From Botryllus schlosseri (taxonomy: Eukaryota), in contig CM119372.1 in assembly GCA_051294905.1 (NCBI GenBank), positions 28,708,001 through 28,772,000 on the forward strand: DNA of 64,000 nucleotides. The letters are read 5' to 3'. The notes below the pieces were generated by a model. That model worked only from the letters and a program-made list of their open reading frames with translations. It made no database searches and had not been told where the DNA came from. Both the position numbers and the translations under genes were made by a program. Positions 5,685 to 60,940 of the stretch are shown piece by piece (position 1 is the first letter of the stretch; the number at the start of each line of letters is the position of its first letter).

Positions 5685-5756
5685 GCAAAAATCACTATGA
5701 AGTAGTGTAACTACTAGATAGCCAGTAACGATTTTGAATTGTGTGCAGGTAATCCA

Positions 5757-8311
5757 ATGGAAAAGAGCCGGAAGAGAAGTTCTCGGACAAGACTGATATG
5801 CAAAAGCTGTCGTCGATCCATATCTTCGTCTTCCAAAGAAGATCACATAACGGCTGCTCATGGGGGCGATTGTTCAATTGAGTTTAGTGTGGAAGATCAT
5901 CTTAAACAAAGCAAGCTAACTTTCAAACCCATTGCTCGGCCCATTGAAGTTGAACAGTCTCAGCAGTCAGTACTGGTGCCAATCGACAGTGCACATGTAA
6001 ACTCCTGCTCTCCTGAACTTGATATCCCTACTGTGGCAGTGTCTTGTCCTTCAGTGCCAGAAATACCTGTGATAGCGCCCAGTGATGATGCTTCGTCATC
6101 TGTTCCAAATTACAAAACCATTGCAATGTCAAATGTCGATCTTAGATCTAGTAGTGATTTGCAAACATCTGCTAATTATAACATTGAACCTCACCAAATA
6201 ATTCTACAACGGTACAATCCGAAGAAGTATGATGATGAGAAAAGACCAAGAGATTTCAATCCGAAGCTTTTTAAAACTCACCCCTGGCTAACATTCAACG
6301 AGAAGGACAAGACTATAGAATGCTTTCCATGCATGAAATTTAACAAATCGAAGGAGGCATTCAAGTATCTACAATATAGGATGCCTCATAAGTTGACTAT
6401 TCATGCAAAGTGTAAGTCTCATCTTACAGCAATGGAAAAATGGGTTAATCTCAAAATCAATTGCTACAAAAAATCTTCGATTTTGACAAAAATGCGTGCA
6501 TGCCACCAAGAAGAGGTAATGCAAAACAGGCGCTACTTGAAAGTGATAATAGAATGTTTACTTTTCACTGTGCAGAAAAATATTGCCCTACGTAATTATA
6601 CTGAAAACCGACTCCACATTGATGAAAAATCAGATAGCAACCGTGGTAATTTTCTGGAGATCCTCAATTTCAGGTGTAAAGACATTCCATGGCTAGCGTC
6701 AAGACTGGAGCATTCGTTAGCACTACATAAACAGTGGACATCCCCAATTATCCAAAATGAAATCGTCGATATAGCAGCTACTCAAGTACAGAAAGCAATT
6801 TGTACAAACATTGCTCAAGCTGGGATTTTCAGTCTCATAGTTGACGAGACGACTGATGTTAGTAATGACGAACAATTGTCGCTTTGTATACGTCATCTGA
6901 TGCAAGGTCAAATCAAGGAAAGTTTCATTGGTTTTTATAATCCAAAAAACACTGAAGGCGAAACTTTGTTTCTTCTTGTAAAAAAAGTTTTAGAAGATTT
7001 GGGATTGGACATTGAGAATTTGGTTGGACAGTGCTATGATGGGGCTTCTAACATGAGTGGAAAACACAAAGGTATGGCAACCAGAATACAGAAAATTGTA
7101 CCACAGGCAGTATATATGTACATTGTCATGCTCATCGTTTGAACTTGGCCCTTCAGGATACTCTGGAAGCAAATGCCATTTTGAGAAATGCCCTTGGTTT
7201 AATACAGTCGTTGCATAATTTTTTTCACACACCAAAAAGGGAAACTATTCTACGTAGTTTTTCTGATGAAGAGAAATTTGGCAAATATGTCAAACTGAAA
7301 GGAATTTGTGTGACACGCTGGGTATGTCGTTATAAAGCGGTGAAGTCTATAGACATTCAAACCTGCCGAATAATATTGGCACTAAAAGCTTGCTCAAATG
7401 AAAAAGATTCGAAAACCTGTGTTGATGCTGCTGGTCTACTCAAGGCTGTCTGCAATTTTCAATTCCTTTTGGGACTTAAAATTTTGAATTGGATTTTCAA
7501 ATTTACTGACAGCCTTTCCACCCATCTTCAAGGGACAGAAATTGATGTAGGAATTTCACAACAACTGGCAACAGCAACCATTTCATGCTTGCGTAATGCA
7601 AGGACTAAAACGGCATTTCATGGAATCTGGGAAGACGCTTGTAAATCTGTTGAACATCTGAAACGCCAGGATGTTGACATCGAGGTGACTCTACACCAGA
7701 GACAGCAGTGGCCATCTAAAAGGTTCCAAGCACTGGTTGGTGAGGATGGTGAGAGGGACGCAACTAGGGGGTTTTCTGATGAGGAAAGGATGTGCTATGA
7801 AGTGTACTTCGACGCGATTGACAGAATCTCTGCTGAGCTATCTGAACGGTTTGCCAACAACACGTCGAAAGTTCTTCTGTCGCTAGCAGAAATGGTACAA
7901 GGGAAAGGAACTATGGATGACTATAAAAAAATATCAGCCTTTTATTCCATAGATCAGGAATTGTTGGAATCTGAGTGTATTCTGTTCCAAAACTTAAATC
8001 CGCAAGGTATGATCAAAAGTGCTGGAGAATGTACGGAACTTCTTGTGTCTACTGGCATTGGAAAAACCCTTCCCCATTTCTCGAGGGCCGCACAGATTTT
8101 TGCCACTATTCCTGCGACATCTTGCACTGCTGAAAGGTCTTTTTCAGGGTTGAGAAGGCTCAAGACCTATCTGAGATCCACTATGGGGCAGCCACGTCTT
8201 ACTAACATGGCGGTATTATACCTTGAAAGAGACATGACAAATAATATTGATATTGAGGATATCATAGATGTGTTTGGTATTCGCCATGGCAGAAACAAAT
8301 ACTTTTTTTGA
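5757..8311 (+). pseudogene. hAT transposase (ZMYM1/PRKRIR-like, DUF4371 plus C-terminal dimerisation region), one frameshift
   Basis: Motifs W.SP.IQNEI, FSLIVDETTDVS, GQCYDGASNMSG, [VHCHAH]RLNL, TRW and TSCTAERSFSGLRRLKTYLRSTMGQ.RL. There is a frameshift in a TA run near 7112 between ORFs 5739-7142 and 7139-8311. Element termini were not established. Confidence 0.9.
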
Positions 8312-8736
8312 ATTGCCAACAATACCCAGAAATTGGGAAGCCTAGAGTAATCTTGGACTCTGTATCAGTGTGTGTGTGTGTATCAGTCATTTGCTTTCAG
8401 TGTATTTCAGCCCTGAATATCCTGAATATGTGAAAAGTTGTTCCCAGTGCGACATCGAAACAAACAAATGCATTATAAGTGCTTTTGTGATTCATTGTCT
8501 ATTTGGGCGATAAAAATATTTTCGCATCCCTAAAAGTTTTTGCTCCCATACACCTATGCTATTAATATATGGTTACTGTGTTCATTACAGATTTCGTTAA
8601 TGGAGAATGCACACTGTGCAGTGTGCAGTAGTGCACTGTGCATTACACAGTATCAGTGGCGTTTCACAAGATCCACCTAAGCATAAGTCGTGATTTCGTC
8701 GGATGATAATTCAGCTATATATCGCGATATTACAAC

Positions 8737-9345
8737 ATGGAGAACACCACAAGCGAAACGAGTGCATTCACTGCAACAGATATGGCTTGGAATATCTTCA
8801 CGAAACAGGAAATGCTCGTGATCGAGACAGCATTTGGTGCTGTTTGGCTTTTCGTATTTTTCGCGAATGCAACTGTGCTCATCGCTCTCTGCAGATTGAA
8901 CAAAACACCTCTCAATGTATTCATGATCGCTTTGTGTTGTTCAGATAGTCTGTCCATGCTTGCCTCTCCATTCGCAGTCAGACAGACTTTGTATTCGTCC
9001 ATGGGTAACGACTATCCTTAGAACAGACTCGTCTGCAAAGTATTGTTTCCTACGTTGGTAATTACATCTGCTATCCTATCACTATCCAGCTCGTGCTCGT
9101 CCTATCAATATGGCGCGTTTATGCTATTAGTCACCCTCACAAAGCCGCAAATGCGATGACAGTGAGAAGAGCGAAAAACTTAACAATTGGCATTTGGCAA
9201 ATTACAGTGTTGGTAGTCGCGCCTTTATCTGCGTACTATCTAAAAGTGATTCTTTTTCTCATATCTTCAAGACTGGGTTGCTTCTTTCAAATTAGCGATA
9301 GAGAGGCGTTTTTTACGATAGTTATTAGAAAAGAGGCCGTTGTTT
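8737..9345 (+). pseudogene. Rhodopsin-like (class A) GPCR pseudogene, TM1-TM4 only
   Basis: N-glycosylated N-terminus, TM1 Asn (FANATVL), TM2 L..SD, Cys before TM3 (LVCKV), SIWRVYAISHP (DRY-type region) and TM4 W....P. It has a stop at 9019-9021 and a frameshift, and is cut off where U1-array spacer sequence begins. Confidence 0.75.
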
Positions 9346-9839
9346 TTTCTTTTTCACCTAGCTCTCCTGAACTGATCATATACACTTCATGTAGTTTGAT
9401 AAGCGCCTGAATTGTGGCGAGAATTGATGACAGTCAGCAGAAATTAGTCTACAATAGGCTTTCCCTATATGCCTCGCTTTTGTAGCTGTGAAAACTTTGC
9501 ATTGCTATGTCACGCTTCTGTAATCCTATACCGGCTCTCTATTGGCAAAGCGAATATCAGAGCACCATGGAGATGACCATAAAACGCATGATAATGATTA
9601 TCGCACTTTTAAGCAAGGAATGGACGGCGGAATTCGCAATTGGACGCCGCAGTCAGTCCAATACCATCGATGACGTCCCAATCATATTTGGCGTTCGCGT
9701 CTAGTAGAAACTATTTCATTTTGCTTCGGCGATTCAAAGCGCACTTGGTGAATGCATTTATGCATATGTGGAGAGCGTGCTCACCACAATATTTATTTTG
9801 TTGTATGAAATTGGGTGTCAATAAATTTCTGGAAAACTC

Positions 9840-9878
9840 ATACTTACCTGACGAGGCAGTGAACCATGATCAAAAAGG
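9840..9878 (+). pseudogene. U1: U1 snRNA, 5' fragment (gene split by Tx1 element A)
   Basis: atacttacctgacgaggcagtgaaccatgatcaaaaagg followed by unrelated sequence. The upstream flank is the normal array spacer. Confidence 0.92.
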
Positions 9879-11409: not shown

Positions 11410-13050
11410 TAGGGTTGTTCAAAATTTGGAAAATCTTACAAATCCTCCGTTGTAATGTCTTATTCTATAGATTATTGATAAAAAACGACACTGAGCCTAA
11501 AAAAAGCTTACAGGAACGCCGTTAAGATTTCGTGCAAAGCGTTTGAAAGTAGCTGCCAAAGAATGGGCGTGCCACCGACCATCGAACGGCGAGAAGACTA
11601 GTAATCACGAAACCACGGCTCTTGATTGGCTGATCGGCTATGCTTCAATGAACACGGCAGCAGCTACTTGCTGATTATGTGATCAAGGAGTCTGCTACCG
11701 GCGGCGATTCTGGAAGCGCATTGTATGTAGGCTGACAATTAATGATTTAGGATTGATTCAGGGTATGTTGAGGTACGAAATACATGCTGAACAAACAACA
11801 GCTGCTTCATAAATCCGTCTAAAGCATGGCCGCTTTAATGCGAAGGACACCGCCGTAGCCTATATGCCTTGTTTTCAACGAGGGAAAGCATAGGCGCTTA
11901 TGCAAGTGGCGACGGATTCCAAGTTTCAGAAAGGATCTATCATTATTGAATACAAATATAAAACTTAACAATGACACTACTTTGTCTGTGTGATCTTATT
12001 GGGCTCAGGTTGTAGCACATAGTTGAAGTTTTGAAAGCTCTAAGGATCGGCTGAATCAGCGGGTTATGCTTGGCACTTATCAGATGCTTACAGCAAATTG
12101 TATTCACTTGCAAGTGTTGTCAAAGTCCTTAATGCTGACGCAGAAAAGGGGTGTAAAAGTAAGCGCATACTATGCTGGACATGATATGTCAAAGTCCTAA
12201 ATAATCGTGCAGAAAAGGAAAATAAAGGTAAGCACAGACAATGATGCATATTGCACAGTATCCAGCATAGTTTGTAAGTCATATCCAGCATAGTCTGTGT
12301 TTACATTTACACATCGTTTCTGCGGCATCATTAGGGACTTTGTAAACACTTACAAGTGAATTCAATTTGCTGTAAACATCTGATAAGGGCCAAATTTAAC
12401 TGTCTGATTCAGCCGATCCCTAGAGCATTCAAAACTGCAACTATGTACTACAACCTAAGCCCAATAAGATCACACAAATTATATTGTCATTGTTAAGCTT
12501 TATATTTGTATTCAATAATGATAGATCCTTTCTGAAACTTGGAATACGTCGCCACTTGCATAAGCGCCTATGCTTTCCCTCGTTGAAAACAAGGCATATA
12601 GGCTACGGCGGTGTCCTTCACATTAAGCGGTCATGCTTTAGACGTTTTTGTGAAGCAGCTGTTGTTTGTCCATCATGTATTTCGTACCTCAACATACCCT
12701 GAATCAATCCTAAATCATTAACTGTCAGCTTACATACAATGCGCTTTCAGAATCGCCACCGGTAGCAGACTCCTTGATCACATAATCAGCAAGCTGCTGC
12801 TGCAGTGGTCATTGAAGCATAGCCGATCAGCCAATCAAGAGCCGTGGTTTCGTGATTACTAGTCTTCTCGCCGTTCGATGGTCGGTGGTACGCCCATTCT
12901 TTGGCAGCTACTTTCAAACGCTTTGCACGAAATCTTAACGGCCTTCCTGTGAGCTTCTTTTAGGCCCATTGTCGTTTTTTATCAATAATCTATAGAATAA
13001 GACATTACAACGGGGGATTTGTAAGATTTTCCAAATTTTGGACAACCCTA
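11410..13050. mobile_element. Foldback hAT-type MITE (TAGGGTTGT termini)
   Basis: Perfect 8-bp TSD gtacacat (11402-11409 and 13051-13058). The inverted arms are several hundred bp long. Confidence 0.92.
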
Positions 13051-13558
13051 GTACACATATACCAATTAGATCACCTGGTGGACCTAATGCAGAGTTATTC
13101 AGGAATCGAAAAGGTTATTTCTCTGTAAATGTACAAGTTGTTTGCAATTCTACAATGGAATTCACGCACATTGTCGCAAGGTGGCCAGGATCGACTCATG
13201 ACAGCAGGATATTTGAATCCAGCTCACTTCCTGTGTATCTGTCACGAACGAACAAACTGCTTCTTGGTGACAGTGGATACCCACTGTTGCAAAATCTGAT
13301 GACTCCGCTCCTAAATCCTCAATCCGTCGCTGAGAGGCGTTATAATAGATCCCATATATCTACCCGCATTAAAATTGAAAGAGCTTTTGGTGTATGGAAG
13401 CAAAGGTTTCAATGCTTGATGATTCCACTGCGCACCAGATTAGATAACTCGCTCGTGATAATTGTTGCTACTGCGTGCATCCACAACTTGTGCATTCGCC
13501 GACACGAAGACCTAAGCGACATTATGCAGCTCTCGGATAACGTTGCTGATGTGATAAA

Positions 13559-14806
13559 CAGCACCGTAACTGCCGCACCCCAAACCCCCCAATTGGGGGG
13601 GGGCGAGCTCGACGGGGGCCCAAAATTATTTCGTGAATTAGCATAAATCATAGAGTATTTTTTGAAAATTTACGCAATTTTTTCAAATGACCGTTTGTCT
13701 TTATTATTGGGTATTGGGCCATTACCGCGCCAAGACCTACCAAGACATACAATCAAGTTTTGGGCCATATAACATGCGACTCCAAGAAGTGTGCCAGAAC
13801 GATCGGCAGCGAGAAAACCTTGGCCGAAAAGGTCTATGCCCTTATGCTGACCGAAGATTTCGTTATATATACAAACTACATATAGGTTTAATTGTCCATA
13901 GGCGCCTAAATGACTGTCGCCGAATGTTGCTGTCTTTGCAATCTGAACCTCACTAGACAAATACCATCCCGCGGGGAAAAATTTTATACCAGTGAAGAAA
14001 TACCAATTTGAAATCGTGTCCGTCTCTTAGTTTAGAAGCTCACGTTTGGGCGATTCTATATTTTTTGTTATAGCAGACTGAAAGTCACGAAATAACATTA
14101 TGTAACGAAGTCATATCAACGGGTCCGCCCGCCGAAGATGTTTAATTATTATTTACGGGCTCTCCCGCTTTCCAGACACTTCACTCGGCTCTACCGGTGA
14201 ATCTAATTACGTGAGTAGAGAGGACAATAAATTGATAGCATAATATATATGCAATCGCCGATCTGATTGACCGATTTTATCATAAATTATCGATAATTTT
14301 CGCGCCTCGCGCTGCCTCACAATACAGTACAGATGATGTCGTGACAAACGCGAACAACGTGATGGGGGGTCGTTTTACACCCTATGGGGGCCCAAGACCC
14401 ACGTTTTTGGGGCCTGACGAAGTACTGTTTCGTTCCTGCCAATGGGTATACGCCCGAAGATGTTTAATTATTATTGAGTCGTCCTACCTTTTCAAACACA
14501 CCTCACTCAGCTCTACCGGCAAATCTGATTACGTGAGCAGAGAGAAGATAAAAATTGATAACAATATATATGCAATTCCCGATCATACTGACCGATTCAA
14601 TCATGAATTCGAGAAATTTTGCGCGCTTAGGCGACAAAAGCTGATTCGCTAAACAAACTCCCAACAATATGATAAATAGCGGTAAACAGGGTATCGCTGG
14701 AGGGGGATCTGGGGGGCGAAGCCTCCCAGAAGTTCGGCCTATAACCCTATGCGGGGCCCAAGACCAAAGTTTTTGGGGGGCCTGACGAAGTGCTGTTACG
14801 GCCCTG
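13559..14806. mobile_element. Non-autonomous hAT-type element, left copy
   Basis: Imperfect TIR cagcaccgtaactgc...gctgttacggccctg with internal ~300-bp repeats. Homologous to 30567-31860. Confidence 0.85.
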
Positions 14807-23200: not shown

Positions 23201-24517
23201 ACCTAGACGAAGAAAAATAAACCTCATGGGCACCGTACGGATAACATACGGAATTTAGAGCTTGACGGCATCCGCAATATCTTACTTGAATATGTCGCTG
23301 CATCGAGAGAAAATACCGCAATTCAAATAAAAAAAAGTCAACAGAGCCTACCGAACGAACAACTAAAGACGTCTTTATCCATCTATCATGGATTCGTCCT
23401 ATTTCCACCTGCTTCCAAAAGCAATTGATTTCTGCGCTCAGTGAGTGTTACGACACAGTTAAAACTATCATGATATATTCTGTTTGCGCGAAAAATTATC
23501 GAGATGACAGGTTTCGCGTCGTCAGGAAAAGGAGAAGCCGTTCGCACTTTCATATGTATGACTTGAAGTCGGTTTTTATCAAAACACGCCAACATAGTTT
23601 GTGCCAACAGCAGTACTTCGTGTACCAAGTGAAAGTAGTACACTGAAGTAAAGCGATCACTTCATATTTCGAAATTTTATGCTTATGACGTCATATTGGG
23701 TGATACAGTTTTTGATAAATAATGTTCTTCCAATTATCTACTAGTTGCTAACAATTACCCCCGATGTGTGCCAGCCCAAAATACCCCGCTTTATTACAAT
23801 ATTAATATACTATTGAATTCCGTATTGTACAACGAAGTGTCTTGGTTACTTAGATACAACGCAATAATCGTTATCCGCCTACTGTTAAACAAGCTCCTAA
23901 AATCCGGTTGGCAAAATAATACAAAAGCCCTATTGTCTACTTCGTTTTCAATGTAATGACTAACATATGGAATCTAATGGTACATATTTCCTTAATATTA
24001 GAATATAAGGCGGCATCTTACAACGAATTTCACTCGTCTGTTTTATTCGACTGCTGTGTATGGTAAAAAATGTGCGCAGTAGCAATGTGTGTAATAGCAA
24101 TAGTTTGAATAAAGGTTTGGCTATGTGATACATAGCTGAACTGAGTATTCAATGATAACTCAATAATTTGTGGTAGACGTTCGTTTTATATTCTTTCAAT
24201 AATCTCAGAAGCTGTCGTTGTACTCAGTCACTCGGTTTGAAGTGGCATGCAGATATTTCTACTTATACTTCAAACTTGTCCAAATGCTAAATTCGTCATT
24301 AGTCGATGTTCATGTTCTTCAAGTTTATCGGTCATCAACATGGTTTACTGTCAGCATTTCTTATGGAGTGGACTATGCCGGTCCTATACATTTCACCTGC
24401 ACGGTGTACATACACGACAGTGTCAATTATCTCATTTATCCCTCTATCTCCAAGACAACTCCATTGTTTTATCACGCATACAGATAGGAGATTTGAATTT
24501 GAAAAATAACTGACGAT

Positions 24518-25731
24518 ATGAGGGGACTAGTACTTGCAACTTTTCTGGTGCTGGCTATGGTGACATCGAGCCATGCATGGTTTCATGTTCACTTTCATAT
24601 TGGGTAAGATTTATCAATATACATATCTTCTATCATAATTGATCTTTGGAAACGCCTCGCACATTGCTCCAAACGCCTATTCCATTCCATATAACAGATT
24701 TATGACATCATCAATATTGGTCGGTCGTTTAAATTCACTAATAAGCGACCCTCACGTTCCGACATAACCCATATGCGATTGCAAGATCGAGCGGAAGTTG
24801 AAAGCAAAATGAATAGGCGCTGTGTGACGCTTTATTTACTCCGTTTCGTTATAAGGCCGGAAAAGATTGACCTGACTCCCCGCACTTACGATCTTAATTC
24901 TTATTATGACACTATTACTTCAATCGAGTCGCAGTGATTCGTGACATTGGCAAAATACTTTTCCATTTTCCATAGGTGCTATTAATGTCCACTTAATTTA
25001 CTAGGGTTAATGTTTGCTTACTTTGCAGGGATGAAGCGGGAGAGCCTGGCGAACATGAAAAGCCGGAGGAGCACGAGGGTGAGAGGCATGAAGATGTTCA
25101 TTTTCACTGGCGTCCTGCGAGTAGGAGGTAAGATTCAACGATATATAAATATGTGAATTGTACCATTGTACAAAGATTGTATCGGTCGAAACATCTCGTA
25201 CATTACCTTAGATGCCTCATCTATTCCTCGCACCAGATATAGTCACCGTCAATATGATTTGGTATAGGTCACTGACGACCAACCGAGGGATCGTCGGCGC
25301 ATTCTGGTAAACCAGAAGTTGAAACTAAAATCAGAGGGAGCTCTGTGACATGTTATTTGCCTTGTTCTGTTATCAGACTGGAAGAGATTGTGCTACATCG
25401 TCTTAGAAACTCATAATTTTCATCATTGAGGCATTATCATATTAAAGGCACGCGAGTTTCGGGACATTGGCTTAATACTTTTGCGCATTCCAGATGTCAA
25501 TGTGTCCACCTAATTTACGAGGATCACTGTTTGCTTACTTTGTAGAGATGAAGAGGGAAAGCACGAGGAGCACGAACATGAGAGGCATGAAGATATTTCA
25601 GGTATTATTCCATATTGTTCCTAAAGATAATGCAAATCCATCATTTTCGCTATATCCTATTCACAGCCATGCTGAGGGATATCATCCAGCAACATCGTAA
25701 CGACGGGAATGCGGCAAACTCCTTTCAGTAG
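24518..25731 (+). CDS. Secreted His/Glu-rich peptide precursor, 101 aa; coding exons 24518-24603, 25029-25127, 25546-25601, 25667-25731
   Basis: GT-AG introns with compatible phases give MRGLVLATFLVLAMVTSSHA-WFHVHFHIG-DEAGEPGEHEKPEEHEGERHED-VHFHWRPASRR-DEEGKHEEHEHERHED-ISAMLRDIIQQHRNDGNAANSFQ*. The signal peptide is clear and ends S-H-A. An upstream acceptor is present at 24483. Confidence 0.8.
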
Positions 25732-25892
25732 GAAGAATGCAGTCTTGATTTAATATCTCAAACCGGCGCAATCATCGGATGTGATTAAGAATAGAAAAAA
25801 TACATCATGTAATTCAAAGCAACGTGATATATTTGCTTCGTACCTTCGGGTGTTCTATGAAGGACTGAAATATTTCTGAAATGGGTTATGAC

Positions 25893-32218: not shown

Positions 32219-33687
32219 CAACCAGTCATATTTTTTTTTTCAAGCAGTATAGTTCCTCTGCCATTTCCATCTTCTTCTCTTCATTACGACGTTGCAGTAC
32301 AGCATTTTCCATTTGGAAGCGATATAGATCCATCCTCATTGAATGCTCCTTTGCATTCATTGCATGGATCTGACTGCACAAGCCTGTATTGAAATAGGCA
32401 CATATGAAAGATCATGTATGACAACGTATATGCATGCAATGGGAAAATCCTTGTCTACTGTGGCATTCTATCAACACCGTTGAAAGCACCATAACCATTT
32501 GATTACGTGCAGGTAAAATTTGCAACAAACCTTCAAGTTTAGGATTATCCATCCACGGTCTTTTCCGCGCCTTCACAATTGGAGTAGACGCTGCTGCATG
32601 CGCGATGTTTTCACTATCATCACTAATAATGCTGCCTGAATAAACAATAGATTGAAAATGCTGAGGTTCATTAAAATTGAAATGTCTCTGCTGCACACAC
32701 ACCGAAATTGCTGCAATTATTGTTGGATGCTTCTGGCACATCACATCTGTTTGTCTCACTTTCTGTTAAAACAAACAAAGATCCTGTCAGAAGCTTTCGA
32801 ATCTGTAACCTGCTTAGATCACAAGGATGTGGCAGTATCTTCGTCTGCTGTAACTATTCCAATTGCAACTAAAAGGCCTCTGCTCACCTATCGGTTCATC
32901 ATCTGGTATTTGTGCTGCAAAACAATTGGTAAGTATCAATGTAAATACTCATCACATACAAATATGTGAATTGAATACCCACTGAATAATATGTCAATAA
33001 GTTGATCCTGTTTATCGGGCTCATTACCGAATTCCGGTACTTTCTCTGCATCAAAGTCATATGGATTTTGCAGTGGTTCTATCTGTGACGGAATGATGCC
33101 TGGAAATGAACAGCAATATAACTTTGTGATATCGTTCTCTGGAAAGCACATCCCACACTTTCTAGATCTGTTTGCGCTAGATCCGAAATAAAAATTTACT
33201 ATGGGACGTAGTTATAGGTAAACTTTCACATCACCTGTCAGCTGTAGAATTTTTTGATTGATAATCTGTTGTAATTAACTCATGATATCTGTTCTCAACT
33301 ATAGGCTCGATACAACCACTGTAGTACAGTAACAAACTAAACTATAAAATATGAATCTTACTAAGTATTTTCTTGGACATCTCGTCCAACTCAGGAGGTG
33401 GAGGTCCTCCTCCGGTTTTGAAAGCGCATATGCCTTTGTTTCGCGAAATCCTTTTTGGTCTTCTGCTTCAAATTACGCCACAGGTTTTGCAGCTGACGGT
33501 GTGTCCGCTTGCAGCCAGTTGTCCGAGAGTTGAAATTTTCAGCAATTTCAATCCAGCAGTTCTCTTTTTGCTTACTAGTCTTGCCATCTGTTGCTTTGCT
33601 CTCAATAATTTTAGAATAACTTTCAGCCAATTCTACTATCAAATGTTTTTCTAACTTTGAATAGTTTTCTCCTCGCTTCACAGCCAT
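32219..33687 (-). pseudogene. Harbinger Myb/SANT-like DNA-binding protein, multi-exon, frameshifted
   Basis: MAVKRGENYSKLEKHLIVEL...IIESKATD.....KENCWIEIAENFN....RT.RQLQNLWRNLKQKTKK followed by a frameshifted TGGGPPP and a GT donor near 33364. The last exon is coiled-coil-like (~32219-32393). Internal exons were not fully resolved. Confidence 0.8.
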
Positions 33688-34937
33688 TTTAGAAACCTGT
33701 AGACTGAGCAATGGAATCATGATCATTACTCACATCAGTAATAGAGCAGTGTAACAGCACCAAATAAACCTAAGTCAAACATTATCAGGCACCGAAGACT
33801 GGATAAGAACCGGCTACCGATATTTACCGATTCCCGAAGAGAAAATTTATGTCACATCAAATGATTGATGGACAAACTGGACATGGTTATCACTTTACCG
33901 GTACTAAACACCATCATCATTTTCCGGCAAGCAAATTATCATCATTTGCGCCATGCAAATGGTTAAATAGCTTTATTCCCATCGGTTCGCTCTGTGGAGA
34001 AATCCTGGCTAATGTACGACCCACAAAATAAAATAGCCCACTTCTCACTTGATCATGACAGCCATTCACTTTCTATATTGAAAACCATAGCATATAGCCA
34101 GCACTACAGGCTTCCGGGCTACAATGAGGGTAGCAAGCTACCGATACTATACAGCAGTAGCTATACCCGCAAAGACTAATCAGGACCTTAATCTAGCTGC
34201 CGAGGTTGATTAAATTTTAACACTTGATTAACTTTAATTACAATCTGTGCAGTATAATTTCAGAAATTAACGTTACTAATCACTAGCATCCGTGCACCCG
34301 ACCCTTAAAGAGCGAGGTTGCCTTGATTGAACTGAAAGATAGGCCTGTCCTTGCACAACCACGCAGTTTCGGATTCAACCAAGAAATAGAAAACTTCACT
34401 TACCTTCAGTAGTGAAATCCACAGCCTTGCGGTCGCGCGGCGTCTTGAGGTGCTGAACAGAACAGTCTTCTAAACGGGTGTTGTGACTGTGCGTCCCTCT
34501 TGCACAGAAGCAAACAGGAACCACCTGAAATACAAAATACAAAGATTAGCAACATATCAGGATTAAAACTAACTGACATACAAGGAAACTGAGAGGTAAA
34601 GACAACAGCAGACAGCTACATAGGCATAGAAATTGCCGATATTAGGTTTAGAGTATTGGAGGAATTGGACAAAGTGGCAGTAGAGATTTTGACAAGGCGG
34701 CATACCACAACGCATAAATAGAAGCTTGTAAACAACATACGAGCATAATACAGTTTGTGGAGATCAATAAATACCAAATAAAATAGAAATATCGCCACAA
34801 ATTCCAGGCTGCGGACAGAAGACCCGCGATTAGATAGACATTCGGACGGAACAAAGGACACCTTTGTCTCCCAATTTTTTGATTGTCTAGCGGCATTGTT
34901 GATATAACTAGCCACAGAGCGGTCAGAGGCTAAAAGA

Positions 34938-36029
34938 ATGAAAGGGAGAACTAGGTCAATCGACCTAATCTTCAGTGTAGATATAGAATTGAAACAAGCG
35001 ATTCAGCTGGTAACAGAAAATAAACAACTGAAAGAAAATATTGCACAACTTGAAGGCCTATTCCAAAACGGCAGACGTGCATACAACCTAACCTATGAAA
35101 CGGAAGAAATAAGAACAGAGATAATGAAAAAAACAAAAGGAATGATCAAAACGGAAGGTTATACAGTGTGGCTGTACAAACCTAGAAATCAGAAATACAC
35201 AATAAACATCAGGGCAGTTCCCACTGAGATTGAAAACAGTGAAATAAAAGAAATATTATCGGCCTTAAACTGCGGAAAAGTTGGTACAGTTGAAAAAGTG
35301 CATCACAAGGGCACGACGATATACAACGGCTTCAGGCGAGTCGAGCTTGAAGACGAAATAAAGGAAAACATTCCTGAAATGTTGGAAGTAGATGGTGTGA
35401 AGTGCAGAGTCTTCCAACCTATGGGAAGGGAAAAACTCTGCAACCTTTGCTTCGGCAAAGATCACATCACAAAAGACTGCTCCAATGAGATAGTCTGTTG
35501 GTATTGTAAAAAACCTGGACACAAACAAAATGAGTGTGAAAGAAAAAACGAAGACTTTCCACGTCTGAATGAAACGAACACAGAAAAAGTAAAAAAAAAT
35601 AGCCTTGAAAAGGCTGGAACAGTACAAAAACCAGAAGATGACGAGAGTACATCGAGCGAGGAAGATGAAGAATTGAGTGATGATGACTCTGTCAAACAAG
35701 CACCCAAATACAGTGAAAATAACGAAACCCAAGAAAAAACAATTGTAGAGGAGGTAGAAATAGAATACGTGCCGAACCTGTCTTCTGATGGCTCGGACAC
35801 AGACGAGGGAGAGAAAGAGGAGAAGGGAAGTAAACAGGCTGAAAACGAATGTGACAGCCCCGTGGTAAAAAAATTCACTGCGGAAGAAAAAGAACAAATC
35901 TTGCAGAGGTGGCAACAGTCCACCTCAAAAGCGAGGAAGCACAGGAACAGAAATAATCGGCAACCGAAATTTAGGCATCAAGATCAAACAACGCCAACGC
36001 AGAACAGATTCACCCCTCTTACCAAATAA
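34938..36029 (+). CDS. Tx1 element A ORF1 (gag-like; probably extended upstream before decay)
   Basis: INIRAVP.EI motif, NGFRRV, two CCHC knuckles (CNLCFGKDHITKDC, CWYCKKPGHKQNEC) and an acidic tail. Confidence 0.85.
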   Translation: MKGRTRSIDLIFSVDIELKQAIQLVTENKQLKENIAQLEGLFQNGRRAYNLTYETEEIRTEIMKKTKGMIKTEGYTVWLYKPRNQKYTINIRAVPTEIENSEIKEILSALNCGKVGTVEKVHHKGTTIYNGFRRVELEDEIKENIPEMLEVDGVKCRVFQPMGREKLCNLCFGKDHITKDCSNEIVCWYCKKPGHKQNECERKNEDFPRLNETNTEKVKKNSLEKAGTVQKPEDDESTSSEEDEELSDDDSVKQAPKYSENNETQEKTIVEEVEIEYVPNLSSDGSDTDEGEKEEKGSKQAENECDSPVVKKFTAEEKEQILQRWQQSTSKARKHRNRNNRQPKFRHQDQTTPTQNRFTPLTK

Positions 36030-39000
36030 ATAAATTCAAGATCGTAACAATCAACATAAATGGTATGCACAGAAGTTGGAAGAAGCTAAAATTAATACTA
36101 GAAAAGAGAAAATTAGACATACTGTGTATACAAGAAACGCATAAATTAGACAAGGAATCGATAAAAAAGGGATGCGACCAATTGAACTATATAACATATT
36201 TTAACTGCTTGAATAAAAATGAAACTTGGTACGCTGCGACAAACGACAAAAAGCTGTACTTCCAAGGCACAGCAATATTAATCAGAAAAGAGCTAGCAGA
36301 GAAGTACCAGATAAAAGAGAAAACAATAGTCAAGCATAGAGCACAAAAAGTAAGCTTAAAGAACCAAGACAACAATACAGAAATCTGGAACGTGTATGCT
36401 CCCGCAGAGGTAGGCAAGCAACAGACAGATTTCTTTAAAACGATTAATAGAAAAATGAAAACAAAAATAAATAGAAAGGTCATATGCGGCGACTTCAACA
36501 TGATCTGCCACAAGCTAGATGCTCGATTTGTTGATAAATACAGACCTACCGCTGCAGCAAAAAGCTGGAAGGACACTTGTAGGGAACACAACCTCATAGA
36601 TGTCTTCAGAACCAGACACCCCTTGAAAAAACTTTACACAATTAAAAGATTCCATCAAGAGAGAAGGATTGACAGGGTGTACTGCTCCAAAGAGATACAA
36701 CAAGAAATACAAGGATTTGAATATAAAATTAATTTGATGTCAGACCACTTATACATGGGAATCTTGACAATTAGAAAACTTAAATCAAACAAATGGGGTC
36801 CAGGAATTTGGAAAAATAATGTTGAATTATACAAGAATAAAGCGGTTAGGTCTGAGATAACACAAATATACGTGTTATATGCAGAGCAAAAAAAAAACGA
36901 ACAGTCACATCACTGAGTGGTGGGACGGAATAAAAACCGTTATAAAGAACGTATTAATAAGGAACGGGAAAGAACTAAGTACGGAAAGGAAAAAAAGAAT
37001 GAGAATCCTAACAGCCAAGATAAATAACGTAGAAAGGAATTCGGCAGAATTTCACGAATTAGTTTCGGAACTAGGAGACCTAGAGAAAGAAGACTTCAAA
37101 AAATCATTAATACAAACAGGTATTGGTGATAGAGAGATAAATGAAAAACCAAGTAAAGAATTCTTCGAAAGACTGAGATCCAAGATAGAGAAACAAAACA
37201 TAACACAATTAGTAGATGATGATCAGAACTTGCTAACAGATGAAAAAGAAATAATGGGAGAAGTAATGAACTTCTACCAAAATTTATGGGGTAGAAAACC
37301 AACAACAGATAGGCACAAACAATGCCAATTTGTAGAAGAAGTAAGGAACATAGAAATAACAAAAGAACAGAACAAAGGGATATCCTTAACGGCCCCATTT
37401 CTGAAGATGAAATAAAGTAGGCTATCGATAAAATGCAGAACGGGAAATCGCCGGGCAGCGATGGACTATCTGCTGAATTTTATAAAGCCTTCTGGAAATT
37501 TATTAAGACTGAACTAACAGAAGTCATGAATAATGCCTTTTTGTTTAATCAACTATGTGAATCCTGGACAAAGGGCATAGTTAAAATGATTTATAAAAAA
37601 GGAGATAACAAAGAACTTAGAAACTACCGTCCGTTGACACTACTCAACACGGACTATAAGATCCTATCTAAAATAATTAACAGAAGACTGTCAGAGATCA
37701 TGCCTAACATCATTTACAAAAGCCAAAAATGCAGCGTGAACCAACGCTACATTCATGACGCCACCCTGAACATTAAAGCAGCCATCGATTACACCAAGTA
37801 TAAAAAGAAGCCCTTATTCATAGCCAGTTTCGACCAAGAGAAGGCTTTCGATATGGTAAATCATGAATATTTGATGAAATTGATCGAAACATTGAACCTT
37901 GGGACAAAATTCCACAGATATATCGAAACGACGTATAAAAAAGCAACCAGCAATGTAGTGGCAAATGGGAAGATATCGCAGACAATTAAAATCAAAAGAG
38001 GAATAAGGCAGGGCTGCCCAATGAGTATGTCACTGTACGCCATTGCGGCAGACCCCTTGATAAGAAAAATAATAAAAGACGAAAATATCACAGGTGTTTC
38101 GATAGGCAATCAGGGCGAAATGAAAATGCAGCAGTACGCTGACGACCTGACAGCAACAGTAACGGACGAGGAATCTATAATAGAAGTCCTGCAACATCTG
38201 CAGGACTTTGAAAGAACCACGGGCCAGAAAGTTAACAAAAAAAAGACACAAATCCTTGCGACAAACAAGGAAGCGAAGAAAAGAAGGAGAAACCCAGAGA
38301 TCAACGAGTTCTACCACGAACAAATTAAGGTACTGGGACTCCTCCTAGGGGAAAAGAACGTAGAGGAGATGTGGATGAGAAAAATAGTTAAAGTTAAAAA
38401 CATACTTAACTTATGCAAAGGAAGAGACCTTACCTGGATTGGTAAAAAGAACGTGCTTAACAGCTTGGCAACCTCGCAGATTCTGTATGTGGCGCGAGTG
38501 TATCCACCTGGAAAACAACATACAAAAGCACTTAACAAACTGTTCTTTGAGTTTCTTTACTACCCAGAAAAGATGGAGACGATATCCAGGAATAAACTAG
38601 CCTGATATCCAGGAATAAACTAGCCTCAAGTAAAGAAAAGGGAGGCATGGCAATTCCATTCCCAATATGGAAAGCCACTACTAGCGACATAATGAAGATG
38701 AGAGACCTAGCTAATATTGACACACCAGAAGAATTTTGGCAAAAACACGCATTATATCAATTAGGAACCAAAATCATCCAAATTAATCCGAAACTGTACA
38801 CCAACAGAACCCCGCACAAAAATGTACCAAATAAAGATTGGGCCATAACATGGAAAAAATACAAAAATCTGAAGTGGGGAAGAGAACAGCTTCAAGAAGC
38901 TAACTTCAAAACAATATATACTACATTAACAGACATGCGGGAAGAAAAGGAAGACACGATCACAAACATTAATTGGCTAGGACTTAACAAATCAAAGAAA

Positions 39001-39519
39001 AACAGAGAGATAAAACCAACAAATAAAGAAAAGATTATAAATTACAGAATAGCACAAGACGGATATAACTTAGGAACGAACAAAAAAAGACGTGGAATGC
39101 TAGAAATAATAAAAGGGAAAATGGAAGAACACAAATGCAAATACTGCAAAATAAAAGAGGAGACGGTAGACCACGTATTTGCCGAGTGCACAGTGACGCT
39201 AGCGGTTCTGAGAGGCGTGGAGAGAATCCTGGAATTGTCACCTGCAAAAAGAGAAATGATATTAATGAACAAGCTGAATTCAGATGGCTTGGTACTTACA
39301 TTGTTATCAATCTACAAGAGAACGGTGTTGACACAAAAACAACACCTTGACATCGAAAATATGTACTTGAAGGAAGAAAAGAAATGGAGAAGAGACGCAA
39401 TCAAGAAAATCATGGGGAAACTGTTGCAGAGATTCAAGCTGCACGAAAATACTCAGAAGAACAAAGAAATAAAGAGTTGGACGGAAAAAATAACAACTTT
39501 CCTGTCCAAAGAAGAATGA
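36030..39519 (+). pseudogene. Tx1 element A ORF2: APE endonuclease, RT and C-terminal zinc finger, frameshifted
   Basis: TINING, CIQETH, NVYAP, GDFN, RRIDRVY, SDH, WGPGIWKNN, KSPGSDG, NYRPLTLLNTDYK, DQEKAFD, GIRQGCPMS, QYADD and CKYC..EETVDHVFAEC. Frameshifts near 36890 and 37410, plus a 23-bp duplication at ~38581-38626. Confidence 0.92.
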
Positions 39520-39814
39520 AAAATTGGACAGGAAATGTGAATGCCTTCCTGTCCAAAATGAACGAAAACAGACGGGAAAAGACAACATACCTGATGAGAC
39601 GACGTGGACGCCTGATGAGGATTGGCGAAAGGATGGGAGGATGGGAAAGGATGGGATGATGGAAAAGAAGATGGAAATGAAAAGATGCGCGGCGATTTCA
39701 TGTATTTCATGCATTTCATGTTATTTTGTGCCGCGCGCGTAAATTAATTTGCAATTTTTGTGTTCAAATTATATGAATGTAATAAATATTCGGCGGAAAG
39801 CCCAAAAAAAAAAA

Positions 39815-39950
39815 ATGATCAAAAAGGCGGTTCTGCCCGGGCGAGGCCTAGCCATTGCACTTCGGCTTGGTTGACCTCGGCGATTACCCCAAATGTGGGT
39901 AACTCGGTCGCGTAATTTCTGGTAGTGGGGTCTGCGTTCGCGCTAACCCT
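39815..39950 (+). pseudogene. U1: U1 snRNA, 3' fragment (partner of 9840-9878)
   Basis: Starts at the TSD and contains the SL2 loop attgcac, Sm site aatttctgg and SL4. Confidence 0.92.
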
Positions 39951-40715
39951 TTCCATCCAACCATACCAATTAAATAGCTCACAGTGCATGGAAAAGAATT
40001 CGTGGCCAGCGGCTCTCGTAACGACACTCACTTACATGCATTCTCGCAAAGCCGCTGATTATTATAAATATACCAAATACTTGGTTTGTTGATTTATTTT
40101 CCCCCTCGGAACGAACGTGGCCATATAACACGTTTTCAGTTGGCCTACACCTCGATTTGTTCTCGTAGACCTGCGATATAGCAATGGCGTCTGACCTTTA
40201 CATCGTTATAGTGTCTGTTTCTGGGTAAGATTTCACGATTAGCGGTTAGTAGGCCTTTTCCGTATAGTGCGAGCCTAATTTCTTTTTCACCTAGCTCTCC
40301 TGAACTGGTCATATACACTTCATGTATTTTGAAAAGCGCCTGGATTGTGGCGAGAATTGATGACAGTCGGCAGATCAGAAATTAATCTACAATAGGCTTT
40401 CCCTATATGCCTCGCTTTTGTAGCTGTGAAAACTTTGCATTGCTATGTCACGCTTCTGTAATCCTATACCGGCTCTTTATTGGCAAAGCGAATATCAGAG
40501 CACCATGGAGATGACCATAAAACGCAAGATAATGATTATCGCACTTTTAAGCAAGGAATGGACGGTGGAATTCGCAATTGGACGCCGCAGTCAGTCCAAT
40601 ATCATCGATGACGTCCCAATCATATTTGGCGTTCGCGTCTAGTAGAAACTATTTCATTTTGCTTCGGCGATTCAAAGCGCACTTGGTGAATGCATTTATG
40701 CATATGTGGAGAGCG

Positions 40716-40735
40716 TGCTCACCACAATATTTATT
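40716..40735 (+). promoter_or_regulatory. Putative proximal sequence element (PSE), repeated in each unit
   Basis: TCACC core ~59 bp upstream of the U1 start, the usual position and core of metazoan snRNA PSEs. Confidence 0.5.
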
Positions 40736-40777
40736 TTGTTGTATGAAATTGGGTGTCAATAAATTTCTGGAAAACTC

Positions 40778-40939
40778 ATACTTACCTGACGAGGCAGTGA
40801 ACAATGATCAAAAAGGCGGTTCTGCCCGGGCGAGGCCTAGCCATTGCACTTCGGCTTGGTTGACCTCGGCGATTACCCGAAATGTGGGTAACTCGGTCGT
40901 GTAATTTCTGGTAGTGGGGTCTGCGTTCGCGCTAACCCT
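40778..40939 (+). ncRNA. U1: U1 snRNA
   Basis: 5' ATACTTACCTG, SL1 loop GATCAAAAAG, SL2 loop ATTGCACT, SL3 AAAT, Sm site AATTTCTGG, SL4 GCGTTCGCGC; ~162 nt. Confidence 0.96.
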
Positions 40940-41766
40940 TTCCATCCAACCATACTAATTAAATAGCTCACAGTGCATGGAAAAGAATTCGTGGCCAGCG
41001 GCTCTCGTAACGACACTCACTTACATGCATTCTCGCAAAGCCGCTGATTATTATAAATATACCAAATACTTGGTTTGTTGATTTATTTTCCCCCTCGGAA
41101 CGAACGTGGCCATATAACACGTTTTCAGTTGGCCTACACCTCGATTTGTTCTCGTAGACCTGCGATATAGCAATGGCGTCTGACCTTTACATCGTTATAG
41201 TGTCTGTTTCTGGGTAAGATTTCACGATTAGCGGTTAGTAGGCCTTTTCCGTATAGTGCGAGCCTAATTTCTTTTTCACCTAGCTCTCCTGAACTGATCA
41301 TATACACTTCATGTATTTTGATAAGCGCCTGGATTGTGGCGAGAATTGATGACAGTCGGCAGATCAGAAATTAATCTACAATAGGCTTTCCCTATATGCC
41401 TCGCTTTTGTAGCTGTGAAAACTTTGCATTGCTATGTCACGCTTCTGTAATCCTATACCGGCTCTTTATTGGCAAAGCGAATATCAGAGCACCATGGAGA
41501 TGACCATAAAACGCAAGATAATGATTATCGCACTTTTAAGCAAGGAATGGACGGTGGAATTCGCAATTGGACGCCGCAGTCAGTCCAATATCATCGATGA
41601 CGTCCCAATCATATTTGGCGTTCGCGTCTAGTAGAAACTATTTCATTTTGCTTCGGCGATTCAAAGCGCACTTGGTGAATGCATTTATGCATATGTGGAG
41701 AGCGTGCTCACCACAATATTTATTTTGTTGTATGAAATTGGGTGTCAATAAATTTCTGGAAAACTC

Positions 41767-41807
41767 ATACTTACCTGACGAGGCAATGAACCATGATCAA
41801 AAAGGCG
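41767..41807 (+). pseudogene. U1: U1 snRNA, 5' fragment (split by Tx1 element B)
   Basis: U1 sequence stops after atgatcaaaaaggcg. Confidence 0.92.
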
Positions 41808-42206
41808 TTCTTCAGGATTAATCTACTAAACAACTTCGCTCACTCTCTCTTCACTTTCCAACGGACTTCGACTCCTCTCGTTTTCAAGTCTCTCCTTCGC
41901 AGTCGGCTCTCTCGCCCGTCTTTCTTCTCACCATCGACTTGACTCTCCTTCCACCTTCTTCACCAAACCTTCCTCTCCGACTTCACTTCTACTAACCTCT
42001 CTTTCCAACTTCACTCTTATCGACACTGCAGTACCATCTTGTAACTCTTCCTATTCCCGCTTCCTTAGACAGCCCTTCGATACCATTGTCTCGCCTGTAG
42101 AAACGCGACTTCCGTTCGAGCTTACGGCTGCACTTACCGACTTACAGCGGCGCTTTTAAACTACAATAGAAACGCTGCAAATAGTTGCTTCGGTATACCA
42201 AAAACA

Positions 42207-44528: not shown

Positions 44529-44552
44529 TCCCACCACTCCCCTACCATCGCC

Positions 44553-47500: not shown

Positions 47501-47999
47501 GAAAACGAAATGCATGGGGAGAAACACTATAACAAACGAAGAAAAAATTCTGAATTATAAAACAGCACACCAAAGCTATCTATTTGGTGAAAAAAAACGC
47601 AAAAGAAATATGATTAGAGACAAAAATGGTAAAATGTTCATCCTGAATTGCAAATTCTGTGACGCGAAAAACGATAACGTGCAACACGTCCTACTAGAGT
47701 GTAGCTTTGCAAAGGAATTGATCTCCTACCTGGACCAACTGCTCCAGAGGAGGCTAACGAAGGACGCGGCGCAACACAACCACGGGACAAAGCACTTGGA
47801 TTGGACGATGATATCAATTTACAAATAAACCATCATCAACCTTAAGGTAAACCTTGATATCGAGAACAGAAAAATAAGAAATGAAAGATTAGAAAACACA
47901 CTACTGCAAAGAATCAAAAGAAGACTTCAAAACATTCCAAGCACTGATGAAACAAGAAGAATACCTAAGAAAATTGAAGAACTGTCAAAGAGCAAATAA
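44553..47999 (+). pseudogene. Tx1 element B ORF2: APE endonuclease, RT and zinc finger; 3' third frameshifted
   Basis: 813-aa open part with SINING, CLQETH, GDFN, RRIDRVY, KTPGADG, NWRPITLLNTDYK, GIRQGCPLS and QYADD. CKFC....NVQHVLLEC lies downstream in other frames. Confidence 0.93.
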
Positions 48000-48243
48000 G
48001 AAATCACACTTACCTCTAATTTCACTTCCGTTAGCATACCTCTCGTTTCCCTTTCAACACATATGTCATTTGGATGTGCCTGACTGTTTATAATATAAAA
48101 AGTTTTAAAAAAAATACTATAAAAAATAAAAAAAATAAAAAAACAAGAAAAAAACAACACAAAGACCCCGAGCTGGAGACAACCCAATATATAAGAGAGG
48201 GTTGCCAAAGGCCGGCGGATACGGAGAGCCGTGAAAAAAAAAA

Positions 48244-58906: not shown

Positions 58907-59068
58907 ATACTTACCTGACGAGGCAGTGAACCATGATCAAAAAGGCGGTTCTGCCCGGGCGAGGCCTAGCCATTGCACTTCGGCTTGGTTGACCTCGGCG
59001 ATTACCCCAAATGTGAGTAACTCGGTCGTGTGATTTCTGGTAGTGGGGTCTGCGTTCGCGCTAACCCT
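58907..59068 (+). ncRNA. U1: U1 snRNA
   Basis: Full-length copy with the same variants as 56905. Confidence 0.94.
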
Positions 59069-59895
59069 TTCCATCCAACCATACTGATTAAATAGCTCAC
59101 AGTGCATGAAAAAGAATTCGTGGCCAGCGGCTCTCGTAACGACACTCACTTACATGCATTTTCGCAAAGCCGCTGATTATTATAAATATACCAAATACTT
59201 GGTTTGTTGATTTATTTTCCCCCTCGGAACAAACGTGGCCATATAACACGTTTTGAGTTGGCCTACACCTCGATTTGTTCTCGTAGACCTGCGATATAGC
59301 AATGGCGTCTGACTTTTACATCGTTATAGTGTCAGTTTCTGGGTAAGATTTCACGATTAGCGGTTAGTAGGCCTTTTCCGTATAGTGCGAGCCTAATTTC
59401 TTTTTCACCTAGCTCTCCTGAACTGATCATATACACTTCATGTATTTTGATAAGCGCATGGATTGTGGCGCGAATTGATGACAGTCGGCAGATCAGAAAT
59501 TAATCTACAATAGGCTTTCCCTATATGCCTCGCTTTTGTAGCTGTGAAAACTTTGCATTGCTATGTCACGCTTCTGTAATCCTATACCGGCTCTTTATTG
59601 GCAAAGCTAATATCAGAGCACCATGGAGATGACCATAAAACGCAAGATAATGATTATCGCACTTTTAAGCAAGGAATGGACGGTGGAATTCGCAATTGGA
59701 CGCCGCAGTCAGTCCAATATCATCGATGACGTCCCAATCATATTCGGCGTTCGCGTCTAGTAGAAACTATTTCATTTTGCTTCGGCGATTCAAAGCGCAC
59801 TTGGTGAATGCATTTATGCATATGTGGAGAGCGTGCTCACCACAATATTTATTTTGTTGTATGAAATTGGGTGTCAATAAATTTCTGGAAAAGTC

Positions 59896-60899: not shown

Positions 60900-60940
60900 A
60901 TACTTACCTGACGAGGCAATGAACCATGATCAAAAAGGCG
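60900..60940 (+). pseudogene. U1: U1 snRNA, 5' fragment (split by second copy of Tx1 element B)
   Basis: Junction identical to 41767-41807. Confidence 0.92.

What the first reader, a model, noticed from the sequence alone, without database searches (positions are those of the whole stretch)
24518..25731. Unannotated secreted precursor encoding a plicatamide-like peptide (WFHVHFHI-G)
Seen: a spliced 101-aa ORF missed by the six-frame track, with a signal peptide, WFHVHFHIG, an acidic His-rich spacer, VHFHWRPASRR, a second spacer and a tail. Known: plicatamide from Styela plicata hemocytes is FFHLHFH-dcdeltaDOPA, and ascidian antimicrobial precursors such as clavanins and styelins have acidic C-terminal extensions. 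The first peptide matches 5 of 7 positions, with conservative changes at the other two. Inference: this may be a member of a ribosomal precursor family for plicatamide/tunichrome-like peptides. The Gly could donate an amide, and the alternating H-x-H-x-H pattern suggests metal binding.
Basis: partly seen in the sequence, partly recalled or inferred. Interest (0 to 1): 0.8.

Follow-up and report, generated by a model that had tools for sequence, protein, structure and literature searches.

The report
Sea-squirt plicatamide-like histidine peptide precursor
This is a real, strongly transcribed four-exon gene, probably of a colonial sea squirt, for a small, predicted secreted protein whose two histidine-alternating peptides would likely be cut out, bind copper or zinc and serve in defence; they resemble the sea-squirt antibiotic plicatamide but lack its key tyrosine.

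Summary
RNA reads confirm all three introns, the + strand, a poly(A) site and high expression. The 101-aa product reads: predicted signal peptide, core 1 (WFHVHFH-I/F/W), acidic spacer, core 2, spacer, tail. The unit 'intron + spacer + core' arose by tandem duplication. Read variants change the cores but keep the His alternation, while changes elsewhere are mostly silent. No relative turned up in the protein, Pfam, PDB, Atlas or metagenome searches.

Best reading (0.55): an ascidian host-defence prepropeptide cut before Asp, as styelins and clavanins are. That would free two short peptides that each start with a Cu-binding X-X-His (ATCUN) motif. Core 1 matches plicatamide at 5 of 7 positions, but no Tyr form was listed, so it is not shown to be a plicatamide or tunichrome precursor; the low-complexity motif could be convergent.

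Boldest reading (0.25): a natural counterpart of designed FHFHFYF-type Cu/Zn catalytic amyloids, in the plicatamide gene family.

Organism (Botryllus) rests on earlier scan notes; cell type, processing and activity are untested. The scan had not noted this gene elsewhere.

The parts
24468..24517 (+). 5' UTR part of exon 1 (start may lie slightly further upstream)
   Evidence: X1 contig covers 24468-24548 without a joint; X21 and X23 depth begins in bin 24440-24513
24518..24577 (+). Predicted signal peptide, residues 1-20 (Arg n-region, hydrophobic 4-15, S-H-A cleavage site)
   Evidence: Hydropathy peak 3.06 at residues 4-12; -3/-1 rule from established knowledge; SignalP not available; both listed variants in it are synonymous
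24578..24603 (+). Core 1, W-F-H-V-H-F-H-I then Gly (last codon split by intron 1); His at position 3 after the predicted signal cut
   Evidence: Sequence; beta-periodic moment 2.89 vs helical 0.64; variants at residue 28
24604..25028 (+). Intron 1, 425 nt, phase 2, GT..AG
   Evidence: Joint in X1, X23, X21
25029..25127 (+). Exon 2: acidic His-rich spacer 1 (residues 30-51, 11 Asp/Glu) and core 2 (D-V-H-F-H-W ... S-R-R)
   Evidence: RNA depth about 900 in X21 and about 1750 in X23
25128..25545 (+). Intron 2, 418 nt, phase 2, GT..AG; 70% identical to intron 1
   Evidence: Joint in three runs; global alignment score 193 vs maximum -31 in 200 shuffles
25546..25601 (+). Exon 3: acidic spacer 2, a shortened copy of spacer 1 (44 of 52 aligned bases identical)
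25602..25666 (+). Intron 3, 65 nt, phase 1, GT..AG
   Evidence: Joint in all four runs
25667..25731 (+). Exon 4 coding part: C-terminal tail with helical periodicity, stop codon
   Evidence: helical moment 1.58 vs 0.67 for residues 79-92
25732..25822 (+). 3' UTR to the poly(A) site; AATACA at 25799
   Evidence: Poly(A) loose end at 25822 in X1; hexamer

Best explanation
The gene is spliced and strongly transcribed, and it likely encodes a secreted host-defence prepropeptide that would be cut before Asp residues to release two short histidine-alternating peptides predicted to bind copper or zinc. Shown: exon structure, expression, the duplicated spacer-core module and variation among transcripts. 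Inferred: (1) signal peptidase cuts after Ala20 and exposes W-F-H; (2) the ascidian processing seen in styelins and clavanins (cut N-terminal to Asp) frees core 1 at Gly|Asp30, ready for amidation in the Gly forms, and frees core 2 between Asp51 and Arg|Asp63, so it starts D-V-H; both peptides would then begin with an ATCUN (X-X-His) Cu site; (3) the acidic spacers keep the sticky cores soluble and inactive in a granule until release; (4) the freed peptides, hydrophobic on one face and His on the other, attack microbial membranes or do metal-assisted oxidative damage, as plicatamide and clavanins are reported to.
For: Splicing, strand, poly(A), and 6403 of 22.2 million X21 records and 7914 of 12.9 million X23 records laid on the stretch. 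Signal-core-acidic order and cleavage N-terminal to D or DD in ascidian precursors (PMC7387483 passages); both cores here end just before Asp-Glu, in the reference and in every joint variant read. Coding constraint: 9 of 14 listed coding variants are synonymous against 0.198 expected, P = 3.5e-4 (only 40 of 111 variant rows were shown). Core variants read by hand tables 5c and 7 change many residues but mostly keep His in alternation: core 1 ending H-W-K (334 reads), H-C-G (8), H-F-R (4), H-N-C-W (X1 contig); core 2 with H-I-H-V-H-P (571 loose-end reads, agreement 0.71); a one-module form with F-H-L-H-I-H (8 reads). Constant framework with variable cores is the pattern described for defence-peptide families. 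Plicatamide, an antimicrobial octapeptide from ascidian hemocytes, matches core 1 at 5 of 7. ATCUN binding of Cu by the ascidian peptide clavanin C (PMC8424629 passages).
Against: No processing, peptide product, cell type, metal binding or activity was measured. Core 1 is nearly neutral at pH 7, unlike most cationic antimicrobial peptides. The cores are beta-patterned and 8-12 aa, not 23-37 aa helices. No homologue was found in another species. The spacers hold many Asp residues or are His-rich themselves, so which sites are cut is not fixed. Some minor core-2 variants (H-E-H-L-N-L, H-A-H-L-N-L) lose the hydrophobic alternation. The organism is not established by my own calls (33, 39 uninformative).
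Confidence: 0.55

Rival explanations
1. The released cores are building blocks, not antibiotics: they assemble into metal-bound cross-beta fibrils that oxidise or cross-link DOPA compounds in tunic, wound clot or extracellular traps (a functional, catalytic amyloid).
For: Strict hydrophobic/His alternation (moment 2.89 at 170 degrees) is the design rule of IHIHIQI- and LHLHLRL-type catalytic amyloids (PMC12995857 passages). Designed FHFHFYF forms fibrils and with Cu oxidises L-DOPA and templates melanin (PMC12559458 part 1 of 4). Ascidian blood cells hold DOPA peptides and phenoloxidase. Very high expression.
Against: The designed catalysts are N-acetylated and amidated, and free termini abolished Zn esterase activity in one series; a free W-F-H terminus would instead lock Cu in an ATCUN site. 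Fast-changing cores suit defence better than structure. No fibril was shown. This reading can coexist with the best one.
Confidence: 0.2
2. The mature 81-aa chain stays whole and works as a His/Glu-rich metal chelator or store.
For: 13 His and 22 Asp/Glu in 81 residues, pI 5.3; spacers are conserved, with mostly silent changes; no classical Gly-Lys/Arg amidation site.
Against: Does not explain variable cores behind a constant frame, the basic pair kept before Asp63 in the listed core-2 variants, or the plicatamide likeness.
Confidence: 0.15
3. It is a peptide-hormone or neuropeptide precursor.
For: Signal peptide, short repeated cores with acidic spacers, a Gly and a dibasic site.
Against: Cores vary strongly among transcripts, especially at their C-ends where receptor ligands are usually fixed; no Pfam match for exons 1 or 2.
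Confidence: 0.08
4. The spliced model is an artefact or a non-coding transcript.
For: No database homologue.
Against: All joints seen in three runs, frame kept in the variants read, synonymous excess.
Confidence: 0.02

Closest known systems
Plicatamide (FFHLHFH-dcDeltaDOPA) of Styela plicata hemocytes (PMC3039461, PMC8719109)
   Same: Eight-residue core, 5 of 7 identical with conservative W/F and V/L changes, His at 3, 5 and 7, and an aromatic residue at position 8 in most transcripts (Phe or Trp).
   Different: Position 8 is Ile, Phe, Trp or Cys in the forms listed, not Tyr, so the DOPA enamide cannot form; here two cores sit in one precursor. I found no described plicatamide precursor to compare with.
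Clavanin, styelin, botryllin and Ciona Ci-MAM prepropeptides (PMC7387483, PMC9966394, PMC8719109)
   Same: Signal peptide, then active region, then an acidic region starting with Asp; conserved frame; His-rich and amidated in clavanins; X-X-His start as in clavanin C.
   Different: Cores are 8-12 aa with beta-type alternation, not 23-37 aa cationic helices; two cores per precursor by exon-module duplication; botryllin is 158 aa with a 37-aa peptide of charge +11.
Designed catalytic amyloids IHIHIQI, LHLHLRL, FHFHFYF (PMC12995857, PMC12559458)
   Same: Alternating hydrophobic residue and His over 7-8 residues, Phe-rich; amidated C-end predicted for the Gly forms.
   Different: Those are synthetic and N-acetylated; here the N-terminus would be free, and assembly and catalysis are untested.
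Halocyamines of Halocynthia roretzi morula cells (PMC8719109 section 24)
   Same: Small His-containing ascidian defence peptides ending in a Trp-derived enamide; some variants here end core 1 in Trp or Trp-Lys.
   Different: Tetrapeptides with DOPA; no sequence match beyond His and Trp.

Membership tests
Plicatamide / tunichrome-type DOPA-enamide peptides | FFHLHFH-like His-alternating core | tested here: met
   5 of 7 identical; low-complexity motif, 114 chance metagenome hits
Plicatamide / tunichrome-type DOPA-enamide peptides | C-terminal Tyr/DOPA that is decarboxylated to an enamide | tested here: not met
Plicatamide / tunichrome-type DOPA-enamide peptides | Homology with the Styela plicatamide precursor | not testable with these tools
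   No such precursor found in papers or databases; no Styela genome searchable
Plicatamide / tunichrome-type DOPA-enamide peptides | Made in hemocytes; antimicrobial | not testable with these tools
   Read laying gives no cell type; no assay possible
Ascidian antimicrobial prepropeptides (clavanin, styelin, botryllin, Ci-MAM) | N-terminal signal peptide | tested here: met
   Hydropathy and -3/-1 rule only; SignalP not run
Ascidian antimicrobial prepropeptides (clavanin, styelin, botryllin, Ci-MAM) | Anionic pro-region beginning with Asp after the active peptide | tested here: met
   Both cores followed by Asp-Glu; spacer charges -8.9 and -6.9 at pH 7; rule from PMC7387483
Ascidian antimicrobial prepropeptides (clavanin, styelin, botryllin, Ci-MAM) | Cationic amphipathic alpha-helical mature peptide of about 23-37 aa | tested here: not met
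   Cores 8-12 aa, beta-type moment exceeds helical, core 1 charge about 0 at pH 7
ATCUN (X-X-His) copper-binding peptides | Free N-terminal amine with His at position 3 | tested here: inconclusive
   W-F-H after the predicted signal cut and D-V-H after a predicted cut before Asp51; neither cut is shown; motif definition from PMC8424629
His-alternating catalytic amyloids | Hydrophobic/His alternation | tested here: met
   compare PMC12995857 table
His-alternating catalytic amyloids | Cross-beta assembly and metal-dependent catalysis | not testable with these tools
   Needs synthetic peptide; no structure job sent, as an 8-mer is below the tools' size and the result would not be informative

The most novel reading that the evidence does not exclude
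This is the first gene seen of the plicatamide precursor family, and its cores are natural, gene-encoded catalytic amyloids: released from acidic spacers, WFHVHFHF-type peptides stack into Cu/Zn-bound fibrils that kill microbes and oxidise the DOPA compounds of ascidian blood cells, the sequence pattern chemists reached by design in FHFHFYF. A Tyr-ending orthologue in Styela would then give plicatamide, settling its ribosomal origin.
Probability: 0.25. Interest if true: 0.85.

Novelty: new variant of a known kind. Interest (0 to 1): 0.62.

Why it matters
The origin of plicatamide and tunichrome-type peptides, ribosomal or not, was described as unexplored in the review read (PMC3039461, 2010), and my searches found no later answer in the held library. 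This gene gives a concrete probe (signal peptide, phase-2 introns at the core ends, Asp-led spacers) to look for a Tyr-ending orthologue in Styela. It also offers a natural library of short His-alternating peptides that can be synthesised and tested for antimicrobial action, Cu/Zn binding and amyloid catalysis. If only the plain reading holds, it is still an undescribed, abundant, multi-core defence-type peptide family.

Tried and rejected
No whole genome was held, so paralogues could not be mapped; within the window there is no second copy (tblastn and blastn). Exon 2 against 5.8 billion proteins of 78-2000 aa: no candidate (weak evidence by the tool's own note). Exon 1 against 1.84 billion representatives: 0 hits. 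Pfam: 0 families for exons 1 and 2. PDB sequences: 0 for exon 1. ESM Atlas: nothing usable for exon 1; unnamed bacterial acidic/His-rich clusters at 0.88-0.90 for exon 2, taken as composition only. The full spliced protein was not searched in any database, which lowers sensitivity. A degenerate core motif in metagenome contigs gave 114 loci (scan stopped at 62 of 64 parts); none read as signal + core + acidic spacer, and 6 flagged by a crude filter were rejected by eye. Run search: no RNA holder listed on record; the laid runs supplied the evidence. X20 (labelled another organism) holds one 162-nt contig identical to the window, so it is not evidence of a homologue in a second species. A decayed third core at the start of intron 3 was rejected (score 25, reached by 50 of 300 shuffles). 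Organism by homology: the receptor-like ORF gave no hit and a HARBI1-type transposase only generic animal hits. Three short DNA motifs of the gene were not found in the probe table of a 2026 Botryllus atlas (PMC13635237 supplement 2). Five peptide motifs were found in no held paper. The primary plicatamide paper and a 2004 review were not held. No structure or complex job was sent.

Full report
Observation. The four exons named under parts join to a 101-aa ORF with GT..AG introns of 425, 418 and 65 nt. Twenty listed runs in 6 studies hold part of the stretch, at most 24% of its words, as expected for a spliced RNA. I laid 4 of the 24 listed runs. X1 contigs, X23 bulk raw reads and X21 single-cell raw reads each show all three joints; X20 shows the third. 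Introns are almost empty, X21 is nearly all one orientation fitting a + strand RNA, and poly(A) starts after 25822. About 290 records per million in X21 and 610 per million in X23 (at 85% likeness, variant forms included) lie on the stretch. The gene is real.

Anatomy. Residues 1-20 look like a signal peptide (hydropathy; the -3/-1 rule is established knowledge, SignalP was not available). Core 1 follows directly. Introns 1 and 2 are both phase 2 and fall in the last codon of each core, so exon 2 is a module 'acidic spacer + core' that can be gained or lost in frame. The two introns are 70% identical (score 193 against a maximum of -31 in 200 shuffles) and the spacers 85%; the end of exon 1 with the start of intron 1 aligns with the end of exon 2 with the start of intron 2 (score 73, shuffle maximum 36 of 300). 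The two cores are therefore descendants of one unit. Reads also show a form that goes from exon 1 straight to exon 3 with a longer core (8 reads) and 6 reads from 2 starts that return to the start of exon 2, which could be a three-module form, a circular RNA or an artefact.

Variation. Of 14 coding single-letter differences listed, 9 are synonymous against 0.198 expected (P = 3.5e-4); 71 of 111 rows were not shown and transition bias was not modelled. Larger changes fall in the cores and appear as letters between joints, which I translated by hand. Residue 28 is Phe in 447 of 447 X23 reads, 64 of 142 X21 reads and the main X1 contig; a second X23 form of equal weight ends core 1 in H-W-K (334 reads) and X23 loose ends show a core 2 with H-I-H-V-H-P. 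Rarer forms end in H-C-G, H-F-R or H-N-C-W, or carry F-H-L-H-I-H. Two minor core-2 forms (H-E-H-L-N-L, H-A-H-L-N-L) break the alternation. No Tyr was listed at position 8, but 8 joints, 21 between-letter rows and 450 loose ends were not shown. Alleles and paralogues cannot be told apart without the genome: X21 has two letters at 24599 plus a third type at 1-2% (28 of 2735 at 25563, 57 of 3153 at 25695) that shares letters with the second X1 contig, which suggests a paralogue unless colonies were pooled. The botryllin paper notes the same difficulty in Botryllus.

Organism. The window is an animal, transposon-rich stretch of about 40% GC with a U1 snRNA array. My own homology tests did not name the taxon. 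Earlier scan notes on this genome call it sea-squirt-type and Botryllus; I take that as a lead, about 90% likely, not as tested.

Mechanism. Ascidian defence precursors run signal, active region, anionic region, and styelins and clavanins are cut N-terminal to D and DD (PMC7387483). Both cores here end just before Asp-Glu. One rule, cutting before Asp, would free core 1 with a C-terminal Gly (amidation substrate in the Gly forms) and core 2 starting at Asp51. With the signal cut, both peptides would start X-X-His, the ATCUN Cu site shown for clavanin C (PMC8424629); plicatamide starts the same way. Core 1 is neutral at pH 7 and +2.7 at pH 5, with strong beta-type and weak helical amphipathicity. 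The spacers (-9 and -7) would keep the cores soluble and silent. Host defence is the most likely role (0.55) because of the precursor layout, the variable cores, the abundance and the plicatamide likeness. All steps after transcription are inferred.

Relation to plicatamide. The match is 5 of 7, and position 8 is aromatic in most transcripts. But the enamide needs a free C-terminal Tyr/DOPA (PMC3039461 section 7 'Biogenesis'), which no listed form has, so membership fails on that feature. Trp-ending forms recall the halocyamines' Trp-derived enamide; that is speculation. The motif is rare in shuffles yet simple enough to occur by chance in 114 metagenome loci, so convergence on a metal-binding pattern is open. 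I put common ancestry with the plicatamide precursor at about 0.4.

The bolder reading. Hydrophobic/His alternation is the design rule of catalytic amyloids (PMC12995857); FHFHFYF forms fibrils and with Cu oxidises L-DOPA and templates melanin (PMC12559458). That paper's main text does not mention plicatamide, tunicates or ascidians. Ascidian blood cells carry DOPA peptides and phenoloxidase. Against it: the designed peptides are N-acetylated, and free termini abolished Zn esterase activity in one series.

Novelty. No relative in the protein, Pfam, PDB, Atlas or metagenome searches, each run on single exons or a motif only. Not found in print in ten library searches; most subscription journals are not held. 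Whether the species' annotation has a gene model was not tested. Class: new variant of a known kind.

Papers seen. PMC3039461: passages and the biogenesis section. PMC9966394: part 1 of 7 and passages; its supplement with the botryllin sequence was not read. PMC13635237: passages, the circulating-cell section, part 1 of 14 of supplement 2 and a search of it; its main supplementary PDF was too large to read and may hold marker lists that bear on cell type. PMC10608444, PMC7387483, PMC10817596, PMC13518417, PMC4282715, PMC8424629: passages. PMC12995857: outline and passages. PMC8719109: passages and the plicatamide section. PMC12559458: part 1 of 4 and passages. PMC13347497: searched, no passage. 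Tincu et al. 2000 and 2003: reference listings only. Recalled without a call: the signal-peptidase rule, Gly as amide donor, and strand conventions of single-cell libraries.

Noticed in passing
window 39782-60944: Tandem array of U1 snRNA genes with a unit of about 1 kb; 13 Rfam matches.
   Followed up: partly
window 34908-39814, 41807-48243, 60940-64000: Non-LTR retrotransposons (endonuclease-like and reverse-transcriptase ORFs) sit at one site inside U1 genes: U1 1-46 lies before the elements at 41767 and 60900, and U1 resumes at position 27 after a poly(A) at 39815 and 48244, giving a target duplication of about 15 bases. Two different elements appear to share the site, which suggests U1-targeting LINEs.
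   Followed up: partly
window 9346-9878: An orphan piece of the U1 repeat unit (about 500 bp upstream plus U1 1-39, 97% identical to the array) cuts off a rhodopsin-like GPCR fragment at 8710-9407. It ends at the LINE target site, while the element ending at 39814 has no U1 5' piece beside it, so the 30 kb between them, which holds the peptide gene, is bracketed by two halves of a U1 gene; unexplained.
   Followed up: partly
window 39815-44867 and 58933-64000: A 5-kb block (U1 units plus the start of a LINE) is repeated at 99.3% identity: recent duplication or assembly duplication.
   Followed up: no
window 2-880, 5718-8308, 12996-13643, 33394-33729: DNA transposon remains: P-element-like, hAT, Harbinger/HARBI1 transposase and a Myb/SANT ORF.
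   Followed up: no
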